Source: a virus
Taxonomy: Duplodnaviria; Heunggongvirae; Uroviricota; Caudoviricetes
IMG/VR virus record: IMGVR_UViG_2778261559_000026
Reading direction: 5' to 3' (one strand)
DNA: 31,691 nucleotides
Part shown: positions 15,901 through 21,900 of the stretch, one piece after another
Numbering within the stretch: the first letter of the stretch is position 1
How the letters are laid out: each line of letters opens with the position of its first letter
Program-made: the position numbers

Positions 15901-18900
15901 CCAGTGTTAGCAGCACTATAGCCAGAGTTCACAACATAGAACATTCGGAAGCGTAAAGGTGTTTTATCCTCTACCGCTTTCATCAACATGTCTTGATGTT
16001 CGTCATCCAGAACACGGTTTACTACTAACGTAGTTGATTCAAGTTTACGATAACCAGCAAGTTTCCCCGTAGCGTCCTGATCATACTCTTCTAACGTCTG
16101 GATCTCTGTAGATTCGGTTATCGTCGGGAATGCTGCGATGTTCTCGATAGGACTAAATGCAGGATCGAAAAAGTCCGGCTGGTTATCCACCATAGTAGAC
16201 ACGGAGACTTCAACATGCGACCCCGTGAAAATGTCTAAGTTATCTTGTGTAATATTCATTATTACCCCTTAAAAACGCGCTACATAAGAAAATTTAAGGC
16301 TAAGTGTCCCAACGATACCCCCATCACTAGAATCATCGTCATAATCGGTATTAGAAGCTACTGGAGTGATATCTGAAATAGCGAAGCCCAAATCTTTAAA
16401 ACGTGGGTTATCCGGCTGAATCTGGATTATCTGGCAAATACCCTCATGAATTTTCGTTTCATGAATCTGAGAATATAACTGCATTTCGATAACGCATTCA
16501 GCTTGCATTGCATTACCACCACGAACACGCGTATAAGTCTCATTCATTCCGGTAATCCAACAAACCACGTCATCACTAAAGCCTTGCTGAGTTTGTTCTA
16601 CGTTTAAAGCCAGACCTAAATCTTGTTCGATAATATCCTGCAAGGCGCGTTTGATTTTCAGTCTAGGCATATTATTAACGGTAGCGAGCATGTGTACCCC
16701 CTGCACGAGCAATAAAGCAATCAGAAGTATTATCACCATTGCGCTTAACGTATTGAACTTTGAAGCGTTCACCGTCTACAATGACAACATCACCCTGATT
16801 TAAGTCTCCCTCACGACAAAATAGAAATTCTGATTCTGTAATTACCCCTTGTTCGTCGGTAGTAGTAATTTCATGGTAAGCACGAATTGATTTACCACCT
16901 TCCACCGAAAATACAGGAGCACTTTTAAACATTCGATTTAATTGTGATTCTGATAATTTGAACATAGTTACCCCCTTTATGGAGTATTTACATACAAAAA
17001 AGCCCCACCGTTAGGCAGGGCTAATTATTATTTTGCTTTCGGTGGACGTCCCACCTTTTTAGCTGTGGCTTTCGCCGTAACTACCGGAATTTCTTCCGGC
17101 AATTCTTCGTTATTTCATTCAGCGGAGATGTGAAGAACTTTCAGAGCTTCCGGCTGTGCTACAACGTAGTCCAAATCTACAAAGATACGAGGCACTACCG
17201 CACCACGGTCACGGTATGTAGTTAGATCCATATCCAGTTCCAGACCGCCCCACTCACCGATAGTAATACCGGAGAAGTCACCCAGAACGATGTGGTCTGC
17301 CGGAATAACGCCAGAAGTAATTACTTCGTAACCAGCCAGTTTGCCGTTTTCGATGATATAACCGGAAACGCCGTTATCTTTCAGGGTAGATTCCAGTTCA
17401 GCAGCAGTTGCACCGCTCATTGCAAACTTGATCGCCTGAGCAGGAACGCCAGCGTCGGTCAGTGCTGCAATTTCTTTCAGGAAGTCTTTATAAGAGAAAG
17501 CGGCTTTCTTAGTAACACGGCTTGCATCAACCAGTTGCTTAACCAGACCAGCCGGACCGCGCTCGTTGTCTTTGTCAGACAGAATCAGTTGTTCCAGTTT
17601 GATACGAACAGCTTTGTTAATGTGATCAGTGATCAGGGAAGCGATACCCGGAACGGTTTTCAGCGACTGACGGCTGATCGGGTTGCCACCAGCAAAAGTT
17701 TTCGGAGACAGTTTCACGTTCGCAAATTCAGCTTTGCTTTCCGGTGCAGCGCCGTTTTCATCAACGAAGCCGAAAGCGTCAACGCTGGATTTAGTCATTT
17801 TTGGAATAGCGGTCGGGGAGTTCAAGCCACTGTAAACAGTCACACCCAGACGACCCAGAACAGATTCCGGCATCAGCATTTCGATGTAGGATTCAGTCAT
17901 CAGTTTTTCGTCAGTGATAGCTTCCAGAGTAGCTTTGGTGTTACCAGCAGCAGCAGCACGCATAGCAGCAGCCGGAACGAATACAGAGCCACCACGAGCA
18001 GCACGACCACGCTGCATAGTTGCAGTAGCAGCCATAGCGGAATATTCAGCTTCGTTAGCGCCGAGCACGTCGCCATCTACCAGGGAGCGGATTACGTTAT
18101 TAAGATCGAAAGTTTTTTCCATGATTTGTTCCTTATTAATTTGTTCGTTATTACGTTGAGCATTGGTAATGTTATTTAGTGCCTTAGTGCGGAATGCTTC
18201 CGGCGTCATATCTTTAACTGCCAATGCGCGTTCTAATTCTTCGTCGTTAATATTTAACTCACGAGCGATTGCTCGGATTTCTTCTTCGTCTTCTTCGGAA
18301 CGTTCAGCCACTTCTTCGATTTTTTCTTCTTCAACCGGAGCGGCTTCACGTTCTTCTTTTACTTCTTCTGTTTCCCGAACAGTTGAACTATCATCATCAA
18401 CACTTTCAGGATGTTCAGCGTCTTTTCCGTCTTCGAGATTTTCATCTTCTTTATTCTCTTCAACTTGGCGCTCTTGAGTTTCTTCTACTTCCGGTTCTTT
18501 AATTTCTTCTACCGGAGTTTCTTCAACCTGAGCGGCTTCTTGTTCTTCTTTGATTTCTTCGATTTGTTCTTTAGTCATATCGCGTTTAGCCTCCAAATTA
18601 ACTGTGATAGTATTTAGAGAGCGATTCAGACCCACGGTGTCGTCTGCGGGAACAGACACCCATGAAACCTCGTGAGGAATCCATTTAGAAACAATGAGTT
18701 GCGATTTAGCGTAGTCGATGTGATACTCTTTAATGTCATAGCCGACCGATATTTTTTCCATCGTACCTTCAATGACTTTATTACGAATATCATTAGCCAA
18801 AGTGCCATGCTTAGAGAATCTAACGGTCGCACGGCCTACTTTATCCGCATCGATTCGAGCGTTACAAACGACACCAATGTGATTATCGAAAATATGATTG

Positions 18901-21900
18901 AACAGCAACGGAGCGTTATTATTCAGACGAGACAGATCAACCGCTTCCGGTGTATGTACCAGAATTTCATCTAATACCACCATTTCTTGATTTTGCTCAT
19001 CCCAGAATCGGCGCTGATAAGGCTGTTCACTGGAGAAAGCAATTTCAAATTCGTATTGATCATTCTGCCCTTCGTTAATAACCCCACCGTAACCGTTAAG
19101 ATCGCGGCGAAATTTAAGCATTTAATCACCTTTAATTAATTGGGGGCATTGCGCCCCCGTTGGTTATTAGGGATCGGCTGGGGAATTTTTTTCTTCACCC
19201 TCACCATCAACGATAATATTTAGTGCGCTCTTTTCGGCTTGAATCTCTGAGAATACTTTTTCAGGATCATCACCACGTTCAAGAATAACGGCAGTACGTG
19301 ATTTAAGTCCTTTATCAATTAAAGCAATATCAGCGTTTACGTCTTTAATAACATCGACAGACTCGAAACGTGGCCTGATAATAGTAGTGTTATCGATAAT
19401 ATGTGGAATTGCAGTAATACGAATCGGAACAACACCACGCGCGGAATAATGACGCAGATACGCTTCGAAAATTGGCAACACCACTGTTTCAATCAATTTG
19501 TTTTGAAGTGCTTTAACGCGGTTACGTTGAAGTAGTTCACCAAAACGTGCGGCTGAGTAGTTGATCTGTGAACAATCTCCCGTTAAGCCCTGTTTAAACA
19601 CGCCTAAGCCCATTGATACGCTAGTAAACATCGCATCATTGAAGCTGTTAAAGTCATCACCGTTTTGCGTCGCCTGGATGCTCCTGATCGTTGCCCCTTC
19701 CGGCAATTCCTGAATAGTACCCGGTGCAAAATCCTGTACTACTTCCGGCGCTTGATATTGTTCATCCTCTTCACCAGTATCAAAATCGTCACCAGAATCT
19801 TTCGGACGTTCGATAAAGCCCATAGAGCTAGCTGCAATACGTTTCTGGATGATCGCAGTTTCGCGGAATGCGTCTTGATGTGCGATATCCTTAATCACTG
19901 GTAGGAAGTCAGTCACACCACGCAGAGATTCAGCCGCAAGTGGTTGATAATAATGGCATACTTGCGAAGCATCTACGCGATAGTTATCACCTGTGTAAGT
20001 CTGAGTCAGTAGGTTGACTTTACGAAACCAGAATGCTATGGGCTTCATCGTTTCCACGTCATACTCGATCCCCTGATAGATAGCACGCTCTTTGCTTACT
20101 TCACGGTTTAGCGACCAGTCGCATTTATCAGCAGACAGGATAGAAACATTTAACTCATTGTTTTCTTTGGTTAAAACGATGAAGCACTCACCACCCATAA
20201 CGCGCTCACGTTCAGCCATTACCAGCAGTTCACGGAAGTTAAAGCGACCGTTACGAGAGAAGCGTTTAGCATTCTGCGCCCACTTCCAGAAAGCATTCTC
20301 GATCTGCTTATTCAGTGCGCTATCAAGTGTGCCATTTGATTTAACGATTGACGGCTTCGGATCTAGGCCAGTACCTACCACCATATCGGTGATGTATTGC
20401 GTGTAGCGACTGCCTACGGAAGTGTTTAAGGCCAGAGTACGACCCTGATCATAAAGGCGCTTACCATTCGATTTGAGAGCCTTATTGAAGGTTCCTGTGA
20501 TAGTATCTTGTTGAAGCGATCCATCAATGCGATCACCTACTAAGCCCAAAGAACGCTTAGACAAATCTTTCTGGAATTTTTCTACTTGTTTGTCGATGAA
20601 AATTTTTGGTTGTTGCTGGCGGTGATTAGTTTTAACTGGAGTTTCTACCGCCTTTTTGCGTCGAAAAAGATTAAACATGATTTACCCCTTATCGCGTAAG
20701 ACGTAATTTGATATTTTTAATCGGGCTAATTCCCTGTTTACGTCGTTCGGCTTGAATTAATTTTGATAACTGACGTTCATAATCAGTCTTTAATTGCTGG
20801 AGAACACCTAATGACTCATAAGCGAAAGTATTCCCTTTCACTGTCATTTGAGATAATGCGGCCTCGTCCCCCGATAGCCTGGCGAAAATAACTTGCTCGA
20901 TTACAGAAATCGTTTCGCGCAGATATTCTTTTTTGGATTGTTTGGCGAATACTGGCAAAACAGTTAATTCCTGCATTGATACCAGTTCTTCTTCCAAAGT
21001 TATTACGATGGTATATTTACCTTCGGCAAAATCTAAGGTTTTAATCTCGTGATTAGCCGGAGTATCATCAACCTGATAAATGATACCTTTACCATTTCCT
21101 ACCTGAATTGTTACACCCTCTTCATTCGCCAGCGTGATTTTTTCGCCTTTACGAATTACTAAGGGAATTAGTTCTAAACTCATAATTACCCCTTATTTAA
21201 TTGTTATTGGATTAACAATATTTAGGGGGAGGCCGCCCCGAAGGACGGCGAGTTATTAGAACGATGTTACCCAGCTACGGCCTCTATTTGGGCGTCTGGC
21301 GATGTTTTGACGTTGCGGTCGTGTGATTGGCTTAGTTTCTTCGATTTGCTCGTCAGATTGCGATTTAGGAGCTTCTACGGATTCTTCGACAACACGGTTT
21401 AAGCTGTCTTTCATTGCAATGAGTTTATCCCATGACATTTTTGAAAGGACGTAGCGAGAAGCAGCATAGCTATAAACCAGACAGTCGAGAGCCTCGTTTC
21501 GGGTACTACCTGGATTTTTCACCCAACGCACACCTGTAGTAGTACGCTTGATGGATTCACTCAAAAGCTGATCGAGATAATCATCAGGAACGGTTTCTGA
21601 TATTTCTAAGCCGATGTGAGGATTGTCTTTCAGGTTTCTAACCAGCATTTCACGAACAGCGGATTTACCAACGTTAACACCCAACATAAGCAATTCATGA
21701 CCACCTGTGCGGGTAGGTTTAACCGGAATTACTGGAGCATTACCAGATGAACTACCCTTGATAGCGTGTAGGTTCTTCCACTTGCCGCAAATACGGTATC
21801 CGGCTTGAGTGAATCGACCGTTCGATGTATCAAGGAAGCTGGCGAGCATTGGCACACGTTCACCATTAACGTTATAGAATTTGGTTTTCTTGAAGTTAAC

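What the first reader, a model, noticed from the sequence alone, without database searches (positions are those of the whole stretch)
17115..19121. Single ORF fusing prohead protease, scaffold-like acidic linker and major capsid protein
The N-terminal ~170 residues carry HK97-type protease motifs, followed by a Glu-rich repetitive linker (EEIKEEQEAAQVEE... KEEREAAPVEEEKIEE) and a C-terminal HK97-fold-like capsid region. In most tailed phages these are separate genes or the scaffold domain alone is fused to the capsid protein.
Basis: partly seen in the sequence, partly recalled or inferred. Interest (0 to 1): 0.45.

Follow-up and report, generated by a model that had tools for sequence, protein, structure and literature searches.

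The report
Protease-scaffold-capsid gene, probably nested
An E. coli prophage encodes its head-shell protein in one long gene that also carries the shell-trimming protease and a scaffold; this fused layout is already known and common, but codon usage and conserved internal ribosome-binding sites suggest that most shell protein is made from a start codon inside the gene.

Summary
Window 17115-19121 (minus strand) is one intact 668-aa ORF. It encodes an HK97 gp4-type (S78) protease (aa 21-168; H76/S125/E151), a disordered acidic linker (169-271), a helical scaffold/delta-like domain (272-393) and an HK97-fold capsid protein (409-668). It belongs to an E. coli prophage. It is intact in 44 of 5,426 complete E. 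coli genomes, so it is not a sequencing artefact.

The fusion itself is not new. It matches PHROG 617 end to end, at least 146 clusters at 50% identity share the architecture, and the literature describes such fusions (Gifsy-2, Rhodobacter RcC phages, small actinophages).

What seems new is evidence that the ORF is a nested gene.
- Synonymous codon usage jumps at about aa 342: the fraction of E. coli-preferred codons (Fop) goes from 0.52 to 0.82, and 0 of 2,000 shuffles reach this.
- The jump lies next to Met334, which has a TAAGGA Shine-Dalgarno (SD) motif 7 nt upstream in unstructured RNA.
- The ATG plus SD is kept in 11 of 12 lineages (30-44% identity). In each lineage the codon-usage change point lies near this site or a second site after the protease (Met182).

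I infer (about 0.6) that an abundant 335-aa capsid protein is made internally and that the full-length protease fusion is the minor product. No protein data support this yet. The linker's near-zero synonymous diversity is unexplained.

The parts
17115..19121 (-). Full-length ORF, 668 aa plus stop: protease, acidic linker, helical scaffold-like domain, HK97-fold major capsid protein
19126..19132 (-). Shine-Dalgarno (SD) motif AAGGTGA of the full-length start (ATG at 19121-19119); duplex energy with the 16S rRNA tail -6.9 kcal/mol
18618..19061 (-). S78 (HK97 gp4-type) prohead serine protease domain, aa 21-168. H76 (18894-18896), S125 (18747-18749) and E151 (18669-18671) are invariant in 147 of 147 family representatives and align with HK97 gp4 H65, S114 and E141.
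18576..18594 (-). Candidate internal start 'site A': GGAGG (18590-18594), 11 nt, ATG of Met182 (18576-18578), at the protease/linker boundary. It would give a 487-aa scaffold-capsid product. Probably a minor start in this phage.
18309..18617 (-). Disordered acidic linker, aa 169-271 (34 E, 7 D, net charge -29; pLDDT below 50 except a short helix at 184-196)
18312..18533 (-). Block with almost no synonymous variation (aa about 197-270; synonymous diversity 0.00-0.07 against 0.2-0.6 in the flanks). The surrounding 271 nt (18290-18560) fold more stably as RNA than shuffled sequence (z -3.15). Function unexplained.
17943..18308 (-). Helical scaffold/delta-like domain, aa 272-393 (pLDDT 80-96). Its C-terminal half (from FDLNNVIRSL at about aa 338; E357, G378, P383, R388) is the part conserved across the family.
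18120..18135 (-). Candidate internal start 'site B': TAAGGA (18130-18135), 7 nt, ATG of Met334 (18120-18122). Duplex energy -6.2 kcal/mol; local RNA structure -1.7 kcal/mol, among the 4% least structured positions of the ORF.
17115..18122 (-). Inferred nested gene: Met334 to the stop, 335 aa, the proposed abundant capsid precursor. Fraction of E. coli-preferred codons (Fop) 0.82 against 0.52 upstream.
17898..17942 (-). Flexible segment, aa 394-408, containing the presumed maturation cleavage (about K396/A397). This is inferred from HK97 K103/S104 and from the start of the deposited R4C capsid chain, which aligns to about aa 399.
   Evidence: inference
17118..17897 (-). HK97-fold capsid core, aa 409-668
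17001..17022 (-). Intrinsic-terminator-like hairpin (9-bp stem, 6 G-C pairs, followed by TTTTT) 93 nt after the capsid stop codon, as after HK97 gene 5

Best explanation
This is the head-assembly gene of a temperate E. coli phage with a long non-contractile tail. The head module runs: terminase gpA, head-tail joining protein, portal, this gene, then connector proteins.

SHOWN. One ORF encodes, from N to C: an HK97 gp4-type serine protease, a disordered acidic linker of about 100 aa, a helical scaffold/delta-like domain, and an HK97-fold capsid protein. No separate protease, scaffold or capsid gene lies in the module.

INFERRED (about 0.6). The ORF is a nested gene.
- Ribosomes start at Met1 and make a minor 668-aa protease-scaffold-capsid fusion of roughly 73 kDa.
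- They start much more often at the in-frame Met334, which has its own Shine-Dalgarno (SD) motif in unstructured RNA, and make an abundant 335-aa capsid precursor of roughly 37 kDa.
- They possibly also start at Met182, giving a 487-aa scaffold-capsid form.
- All forms share the capsid domain and so co-assemble into one shell.
- The few full-length subunits thereby place protease and scaffold inside the shell at sub-stoichiometric dose. This is the same logic as lambda C/Nu3, HSV-1 UL26/UL26.5 and HFTV1 gp17/gp17.5, but with the capsid protein itself as the shared C-terminal module.

INFERRED by homology. After assembly the protease removes everything N-terminal of about aa 397 from every subunit, leaving a mature capsid protein of about 272 aa.
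For: Architecture. The catalytic residues align with those of HK97 gp4 and are invariant in 147 of 147 representatives.

Nested start, evidence within the window:
1. The fraction of E. coli-preferred codons (Fop; E, K, M and W excluded) is 0.49 in the protease part and 0.56 in the linker part. That equals the background of the prophage genes (0.34-0.62). It is 0.82 from Met334 onward, like the tail-tube gene (0.76).
2. The maximum-likelihood change point is aa 342, log-likelihood ratio 29. In 2,000 synonymous shuffles, none reached this (largest 11).
3. Met334 has TAAGGA 7 nt upstream. Its duplex energy is -6.2 kcal/mol, against -6.9 for the annotated start and -5.7 for the tail-tube gene. Its initiation region is among the least structured 4% of the ORF.

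Evidence from close relatives:
4. In 8 other E. coli copies, two of which carry an unrelated protease allele, the ATG, the AAGGA motif and the 7-nt spacing are all kept although the encoded peptide differs (NKEQI-M against KDSK-M). The Fop step is also kept (0.44-0.52 against 0.75-0.85).
5. All 120 closest protein clusters keep the Met.

Evidence from diverged lineages:
6. In 11 further lineages at 30-44% identity, 10 have an in-frame ATG with an SD motif just before the conserved block. Seven of the 12 lineages (window included) also have one at the protease/linker boundary.
7. A host-agnostic synonymous-codon change-point test is significant in all 12 (0-4 of 200 shuffles reach the observed value). 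The change point lies within 8 codons of one of the two sites in 9 of 12, and within 22 codons in 11 of 12. Chance coincidence has Fisher p 6.6e-6.
8. Two distant relatives with no significant codon step (phiHAP-1, Murka) have no SD-ATG with duplex energy of -5.2 kcal/mol or stronger within about 50 codons of the protease/linker boundary. KA2-1 and Persinger have both a step and an SD-ATG next to it.
9. As a control, HK97's separate genes show the same direction of difference (protease 0.55, capsid 0.67).
Against: There is no protein, ribosome-profiling or transcript evidence. Everything about initiation is inferred from sequence.
- The SD motif is largely dictated by Lys-Glu or Lys-Asp dipeptides, which are common in this region. 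A synonymous-shuffle test of the SD motif alone is weak (per-lineage p 0.004-0.89, Fisher p 0.012).
- The 12 lineages are homologous and not fully independent. Both codon-usage boundaries and K/E-rich SD-like motifs could sit at domain boundaries for unrelated reasons, such as mosaic recombination. The protease module is in fact swapped at the linker in L008 and L009.
- Met334 lies at the end of a predicted long helix (aa 307-336), so the short product would carry only half of the predicted helical domain.
- The host-agnostic change point in the window itself is aa 356, 22 codons downstream of Met334.
- One lineage (P0125) has only a weak SD motif near its change point.
- phiHAP-1, R4C and Murka show no significant codon step. 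The nested arrangement is therefore not universal in the family.
Confidence: 0.6

Rival explanations
1. Pure polyprotein. Only the 668-aa product is made, so every capsid subunit arrives with its own protease and scaffold (1:1:1) and is trimmed after assembly. On this view the codon-usage step reflects something other than translation level: mosaic ancestry of the two halves, or stronger accuracy selection on the part that stays in the virion.
For: The frame is open throughout in every relative. The literature treats such genes as simple fusions. Module exchange at the linker is demonstrably happening. phiHAP-1, R4C and Murka show no codon step, so the fusion can evidently work without the nested signature. 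The synonymous-shuffle test of the SD motif is weak.
Against: Selection for translation efficiency should act equally on all codons of a product made only as one chain. Yet the step is large, significant in 12 of 12 lineages, always in the same direction, and maintained through saturating synonymous divergence. Accuracy selection does not explain why the well-folded, invariant-residue protease domain has background codon usage. Nor does it explain why in DCP80 and P0122 the disordered linker is also optimised, starting exactly at an SD-ATG. Independent mosaic events would have to hit the same two SD-ATG positions repeatedly.
Confidence: 0.3
2. Fossil of a gene fusion. The ancestor had a protease-scaffold gene followed by a capsid gene. 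The stop codon was lost, and the internal SD-ATG and the codon bias of the 3' half are decaying relics with no present function.
For: The layout mirrors HK97 gene 4 followed by gene 5, with a terminator after the capsid gene. The Met sits just upstream of the family-wide conserved block.
Against: The fusion is old. It is shared at 25-45% identity by at least 146 clusters. Yet the ATG, the SD motif and its spacing persist while the surrounding peptide changes. Codon bias stays at 0.75-0.85 in copies whose capsid parts differ at up to 18% of nucleotides. Relics would have decayed.
Confidence: 0.08
3. Artefact. A sequencing or assembly error, or a pseudogene, has joined two separate genes.
For: None found.
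Against: The sequence is identical in two independent complete genomes. It is full length in 44 complete genomes at 80-100% identity, and intact in all 8 fetched copies and in 120 protein clusters. The only broken copies seen carry IS insertions.
Confidence: 0.01

Closest known systems
Salmonella phage Gifsy-2 'tripartite capsid gene' (Effantin et al. 2010, Virology 402:355, pmid 20427067; cited in PMC12315714, PMC8814770)
   Same: One gene carries the protease at the N-terminus, a central scaffold-like region and the capsid protein at the C-terminus, in a temperate enterobacterial phage. [quoted passage not shown]
   Different: From my own knowledge, the Gifsy-2 protease is ClpP-like. Here it is S78 (HK97 gp4-type), and Pfam finds no ClpP domain. 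The Gifsy-2 paper is not held in the library, so I could not check whether internal initiation was considered there.
HK97 gp4 protease plus gp5 (delta domain fused to the capsid protein)
   Same: The same protease family, with catalytic H65 and S114 aligned to H76 and S125. The same capsid fold. An N-terminal helical scaffold-like domain precedes the capsid core and is presumably removed. The gene order is the same, with a terminator after the capsid gene.
   Different: In HK97 these are two genes, and the protease is recruited non-covalently. Here there is one open frame, with the protease tethered through an acidic linker of about 100 aa.
Nested protease/scaffold genes: lambda C/Nu3, HSV-1 UL26/UL26.5, Haloferax virus HFTV1 gp17/gp17.5 (bioRxiv 10.64898/2026.09.13.751334)
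   Same: The proposed logic is the same. A long minor product carries the protease. A short abundant product comes from an in-frame internal start. The two share a C-terminus, which targets both to the same assembly.
   Different: In those systems the shared C-terminal module is the scaffold, and the capsid protein is a separate gene. Here the shared module would be the capsid protein itself. Those cases are experimentally shown; this one is inferred from sequence only.
PHROG 617 / PHROG 4523 and published fusions in Rhodobacter RcC phages and in small actinobacteriophages (clusters AN, EE and others)
   Same: End-to-end profile match to PHROG 617 (E 7e-92, aa 20-663). 'Fused major capsid and protease' (PMC8601537). 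'Protease-scaffold-capsid fusion' (PMC7302621). 'Fused protease-capsid gene' (PMC5513430).
   Different: None of these sources, as far as I could read them, mentions internal starts or an intragenic shift in codon usage.
Roseophage vB_DshS-R4C capsid protein (PDB 8GTA)
   Same: The closest solved structure (phmmer E 5e-24; Foldseek E 1.3e-18). Its gene is also a 629-aa fusion, while the deposited chain has 268 residues and starts at the equivalent of about aa 399.
   Different: R4C shows no significant codon step and no SD-ATG at site B. The R4C structure paper does not mention a protease.

Membership tests
Peptidase S78 (HK97 gp4-type prohead protease) | Profile match above the curated threshold | tested here: met
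   Pfam PF04586 scores 38.3 bits against a cutoff of 21. The narrower NCBIfam equivalog TIGR01543 is below its cutoff (30.1 against 59). The protein is therefore a family member but not a close HK97 ortholog.
Peptidase S78 (HK97 gp4-type prohead protease) | Catalytic His and Ser (HK97 gp4 H65 and S114; the catalytic role of these residues is recalled from Duda et al. 2013, my own knowledge) present and aligned | tested here: met
   LLFNH76 aligns with FFNH65, and IS125VGY with MS114VGF. H76, S125 and E151 are invariant in 147 of 147 representatives.
Peptidase S78 (HK97 gp4-type prohead protease) | Proteolytic activity on the capsid precursor | not testable with these tools
   Needs a biochemical assay or virion N-terminal sequencing.
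HK97-fold major capsid protein (PF05065) | Profile match and HK97 fold | tested here: met
   Pfam E 1.6e-26. PDB 8gta_A E 5e-24. The AlphaFold2 model has pLDDT mostly above 90. Foldseek target-normalised TM-score is 0.70 to R4C and 0.71 to HK97 Head II.
Fused protease-scaffold-capsid genes (PHROG 617 type) | Both domains in one uninterrupted frame, matched end to end by the family profile | tested here: met
   PHROG 617 E 7e-92, covering aa 20-663 of 668 and profile positions 23-621 of 626. 146 of the 150 best cluster representatives are 540-720 aa and carry both sets of invariant residues.
NCBIfam NF045541 'prohead protease/major capsid protein fusion protein' (scaf_prot_MCP2) | Score at or above the curated cutoff over the full length | tested here: not met
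   121.7 bits against a cutoff of 525, and only the N-terminal half matches (aa 21-341). It is the same kind of gene but not a member of that specific family.
Nested protease/scaffold-type genes (lambda C/Nu3, HSV UL26/UL26.5) | In-frame internal start codon with its own ribosome-binding site | tested here: met
   Met334 has TAAGGA 7 nt upstream in unstructured RNA. This is conserved in 9 of 9 E. coli copies and 11 of 12 lineages. Met182 has GGAGG 11 nt upstream.
Nested protease/scaffold-type genes (lambda C/Nu3, HSV UL26/UL26.5) | The short product is made in excess over the long product | tested here: inconclusive
   The evidence is only indirect. Codon adaptation steps up at the internal start in 12 of 12 lineages. 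No expression data exist.
Nested protease/scaffold-type genes (lambda C/Nu3, HSV UL26/UL26.5) | Two protein products demonstrated | not testable with these tools
   Needs a western blot, N-terminal proteomics or ribosome profiling.

The most novel reading that the evidence does not exclude
The fused capsid gene is a three-in-one nested gene: starts at Met1, Met182 and Met334 set the protease:scaffold:capsid ratio by translation initiation alone. The invariant, structured RNA block of about 220 nt inside the acidic-linker coding region is a cis-acting element that controls this ratio, for example as an mRNA processing or stabilising site, or as a structure that gates ribosome access to the internal start. 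It would be a regulatory RNA hidden in what looks like a disposable disordered linker.
Probability: 0.15. Interest if true: 0.65.

Novelty: new variant of a known kind. Interest (0 to 1): 0.45.

Why it matters
Fused protease-capsid genes are common: at least 146 clusters at 50% identity and 78 deposited phage genomes. They pose an unanswered dosage problem. A T=7 shell needs about 415 capsid subunits but, in HK97, only tens of protease molecules (figures from my own knowledge).

If the abundant capsid protein is made from an internal start, the problem disappears. The nested-gene solution known from lambda, herpesviruses and an archaeal virus would then extend to the capsid protein itself, adding to the evidence of shared assembly logic across HK97-fold viruses.

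There are practical consequences.
- Annotation pipelines call only the long ORF, here as 'phage major capsid protein', and would miss the real major product and its start.
- Intragenic codon-usage change points could be used to find hidden nested genes elsewhere.

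Tried and rejected
- **Sequencing error or frameshift joining two genes.** Rejected: the ORF is intact in 44 complete genomes, in 8 fetched copies and in 120 protein clusters.
- **Internal sigma-70 promoter for a shorter mRNA.** None was found on either strand in 16900-19300. Non-canonical late promoters are not excluded.
- **A natural 'split' relative.** The 297-aa stand-alone protease P0153 turned out to be truncated by an IS element, with transposase genes directly downstream.
- **Solved structure for the protease domain by sequence.** No PDB hit even at E = 10. Foldseek with the whole model returned only capsid hits.
- **Known RNA family in the invariant linker block.** None at the gathering threshold, and nothing meaningful at E up to 1.
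- **Synonymous-shuffle test of the internal Shine-Dalgarno motif.** Weak support only (Fisher p 0.012), because Lys-Glu and Lys-Asp dipeptides dictate AAGGA.
- **Experimental N-termini in relatives.** The phiHAP-1 and Gifsy-2 papers are not held. The R4C structure paper and a marine-phage proteomics paper say nothing about a protease or about processing.
- **Antisense ORFs inside the gene** (for example 17292-18179 on the plus strand, 295 aa). I take these to be by-products of the strong codon bias, not genes; this was not tested further.

Full report
**1. The observation**

Window 17115-19121 (minus strand) is a single ATG-initiated ORF of 668 codons. An AAGGTGA Shine-Dalgarno (SD) motif lies 4 nt upstream of the ATG.

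- Pfam places Peptidase_S78 at aa 40-162 (E 1.9e-9, above the curated cutoff) and Phage_capsid at aa 410-664 (E 1.6e-26).
- The quoted Glu-rich stretches are present. Residues 169-271 contain 34 Glu and 7 Asp, net charge -29.
- An AlphaFold2 model was built on 75 diverse relatives (mean pLDDT 81.6). It resolves five parts:
  - protease domain, aa 21-168, pLDDT above 90;
  - disordered linker, aa 169-271;
  - low-confidence hinge, aa 394-408;
  - HK97 fold, aa 409-668.
- Foldseek against the PDB returns capsid proteins only. The best hits are roseophage R4C (8gta_A, E 1.3e-18, target-normalised TM-score 0.70) and HK97 Head II (0.71).
- HK97 gp4's catalytic H65 and S114 (their role recalled from Duda et al. 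2013) align with H76 (LLFNH) and S125 (ISVGY). H76, S125 and E151 are invariant in 147 of 147 family representatives.

**2. Source and integrity**

The sequence is 100% identical to a prophage of E. coli O55:H7 DEC5A and of strain FDAARGOS_946. Full-length copies at 80-100% nucleotide identity occur in 44 of 5,426 complete E. coli genomes, all on chromosomes.

Eight fetched copies are all single intact ORFs of 666-672 aa. The 120 closest protein clusters are all 663-670 aa with both Pfam domains. A sequencing or assembly artefact is excluded.

The gene sits in a conserved head module: terminase gpA, a protein of about 160 aa matching a head-tail joining family, a lambda-type portal, this gene, then small connector proteins. 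No separate protease, scaffold or capsid gene lies in the module.

**3. The fusion is known**

- PHROG 617 matches end to end (E 7e-92). PHROG 4523 is named 'major head and protease protein'. NCBIfam has a 'prohead protease/major capsid protein fusion protein' model, which this protein does not reach (121.7 against 525 bits).
- 78 deposited phage genomes carry relatives. Their hosts include Escherichia, Xanthomonas, Pseudomonas, Rhodobacter, Roseobacter, Synechococcus, Halomonas and Vibrio. Some are annotated 'major capsid protein and protease'.
- In a library of 1.8 billion cluster representatives there are 6,321 hits. 146 of the best 150 are fusions of 540-720 aa.

As an architecture this is a new member of a known kind.

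**4. What else is there: a codon-usage step**

I scored the fraction of E. coli-preferred codons (Fop), leaving out Glu, Lys, Met and Trp codons.

| Region | Fop |
|---|---|
| Protease part of this ORF | 0.49 |
| Linker part of this ORF | 0.56 |
| Other ORFs of at least 90 aa in the window, apart from the tail-tube gene and ORF 27748-28704 | 0.33-0.62 |
| Met334 to the end of this ORF | 0.82 |
| Tail-tube gene, the other very abundant virion protein | 0.76 |

The maximum-likelihood change point is aa 342, with a log-likelihood ratio of 29. None of 2,000 shuffles of synonymous codons exceeded 11.

Right at the step lies Met334. It is preceded by TAAGGA with a 7-nt spacer. The duplex energy with the 16S rRNA tail is -6.2 kcal/mol, compared with -6.9 for the annotated start and -5.7 for the tail-tube gene. 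Its initiation region (-30 to +20) is among the 4% least structured positions in the ORF.

A second candidate, Met182, has GGAGG 11 nt upstream and sits exactly at the protease/linker boundary. It is also in open RNA.

**5. Conservation of the internal starts**

In eight diverged E. coli copies the ATG, the AAGGA motif and the 7-nt spacing are all retained, although the peptide differs (..INKEQI-M.. against ..I-KDSK-M..). Two of these copies carry a protease allele that is only 50% identical at the nucleotide level, exchanged at the start of the linker. The Fop step is retained in all of them (0.44-0.52 against 0.75-0.85).

I then fetched DNA for 11 more lineages at 30-44% protein identity: ten metagenomic or genomic contigs and phage DCP80.

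- 11 of the 12 lineages (window included) have an in-frame ATG with an AAGGA- or GGTGA-type SD motif, 4-11 nt upstream, just before the family-wide conserved block (FDLxxxIRS in the window).
- 7 of 12 also have one at the protease/linker boundary.
- A change-point test that uses only each gene's own synonymous codon usage, and so needs no knowledge of the host, is significant in all 12. The change point falls within 8 codons of one of these two sites in 9 lineages, and within 22 codons in 11.
- The probability of such coincidence under random change points is 6.6e-6 (Fisher, treating lineages as independent).
- Lineages differ in which site marks the step. It is the site after the protease in DCP80, P0122 and P0123, and the site before the capsid in the window and seven others.
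- Among more distant phages, phiHAP-1, Murka and R4C show no significant step, and phiHAP-1 and Murka have no SD-ATG of at least -5.2 kcal/mol within about 50 codons of the protease/linker boundary. KA2-1 and Persinger have both a step and an SD-ATG next to it (aa 212 near change point 218; aa 216 near 230).
- HK97, with separate genes, shows the expected contrast: protease 0.55, capsid 0.67.

**6. Interpretation**

Selection for efficient codons scales with how often a codon is translated. A sharp, conserved, same-direction step inside one reading frame, tied to an internal SD-ATG, is what a nested gene predicts.

I therefore propose that the abundant capsid precursor is the 335-aa product starting at Met334, and that the 668-aa fusion is a minor product. 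The fusion would co-assemble through its capsid domain and so deliver protease and scaffold into the shell. Lambda C/Nu3, HSV-1 UL26/UL26.5 and HFTV1 gp17/gp17.5 achieve the same thing with a shared scaffold tail.

Maturation would remove everything before about aa 397. This is inferred from three things: the hinge in the model, HK97's K103/S104 site, and the deposited R4C chain, which begins at the equivalent of aa 399.

I put 0.6 on the nested reading. The weaknesses are these.
- There are no protein or ribosome data.
- The SD motif is largely forced by Lys-Glu or Lys-Asp dipeptides (synonymous-shuffle Fisher p only 0.012).
- The lineages share ancestry.
- Codon boundaries and K/E-rich motifs might both track domain boundaries through mosaic recombination, which does occur here.
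- Met334 falls at the end of a predicted helix, so the short form would carry only half of the helical domain.

The main rival is a pure 1:1:1 polyprotein whose codon step has another cause; I give it 0.3.

**7. An unexplained extra**

Among the nine E. coli copies, synonymous diversity is 0.2-0.6 in the protease and capsid parts. It collapses to 0.00-0.07 across aa about 197-270 of the acidic linker. The few differences there are mostly non-synonymous, and even rare codons are invariant.

A 271-nt stretch around this block (18290-18560) is 95-99% identical in 45 of the 49 genomes that carry the gene and occurs nowhere else in E. coli. As RNA, that stretch folds more stably than shuffled sequence (-58.1 against -44.6 kcal/mol, z -3.15, 0 of 200 shuffles as stable). 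No Rfam family matches.

A disordered linker being the most conserved DNA in the gene points to a nucleic-acid-level function or to recombination-driven homogenisation at the module junction. I could not decide between these.

**8. Verdict**

The fusion itself is ordinary and documented. The likely nested expression is a new, directly testable variant of the known nested protease/scaffold theme. Interest 0.45.

Noticed in passing
window 18312-18533 (minus strand; aa about 197-270 of the ORF): The coding DNA of the acidic linker has almost no synonymous variation among diverged E. coli copies (0.00-0.07 against 0.2-0.6 in the flanks). The few changes are mostly non-synonymous. A 271-nt stretch around it (18290-18560) folds more stably as RNA than shuffled sequence (z -3.15). 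It could be a hidden cis element or a recombination junction.
   Followed up: partly
window 11924-15352 (minus strand): Parts of the 1,142-aa tail-fibre gene (window about 12100-14300) share 82-89% nucleotide identity with the long-tail-fibre distal-subunit genes of virulent T4-like coliphages of about 165 kb (MIZ4, KFS-EC, kvi and others). This indicates recent exchange of a receptor-binding module between a temperate prophage and lytic phages. The fibre gene sits between the connector genes and the tail-tube gene, as it does in related contigs.
   Followed up: partly
window 15426-16259 and 11365-11835 (minus strand): Two tube-like paralogues both match PHROG 158 'major tail protein'. The 156-aa protein has high codon adaptation (Fop 0.76). 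The 277-aa protein has background codon usage (0.48) and a C-terminal extension. They are probably the major tube protein and a minor tube-like ring or adaptor.
   Followed up: partly
window 17001-17022 (minus strand) and 19141-19159: A strong terminator-like hairpin (9-bp stem followed by TTTTT) lies 93 nt after the capsid stop codon. A G+C-rich hairpin lies between the portal stop codon and the capsid-gene SD motif. This is the same placement as the putative terminators flanking genes 4-5 in HK97.
   Followed up: partly
L008 and L009 (E. coli ETEC1717 and CFSAN061761) compared with the window: The protease domain exists in two alleles that are only about 50% identical at the nucleotide level. 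They are exchanged as a module, with the junction at the start of the acidic linker. The rest of the gene is 82-89% identical.
   Followed up: yes
window 16414-16504 (plus strand): ARAGORN calls a 91-nt tRNA-Glu (anticodon UUC, at position 40), antisense within a 167-aa ORF. Rfam finds no tRNA there even at E = 1, so this is probably a false positive. The coincidence with the 72 GAA codons in the capsid gene is noted.
   Followed up: yes
window 27748-28704 (plus strand): A 318-aa ORF outside the structural module has unusually high codon adaptation (Fop 0.72) and no PHROG match. It is annotated as hypothetical in the DEC5A genome and is possibly a highly expressed prophage gene.
   Followed up: no
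window 6050-6823 (minus strand): A 257-aa ORF lies among the tail genes. In the DEC5A prophage the gene at the corresponding position (same length) is annotated as a NUMOD3-domain DNA-binding protein, which is typical of homing endonucleases.
   Followed up: no
L010 (Escherichia phage DCP80, PQ671644.1, record positions 1734-10859): A record classified as a T4-like Straboviridae phage (141 kb) carries a lambda-type terminase, a portal and a fused protease-capsid gene related to the one in this window. This could be a chimeric assembly or an unusual mosaic.
   Followed up: no
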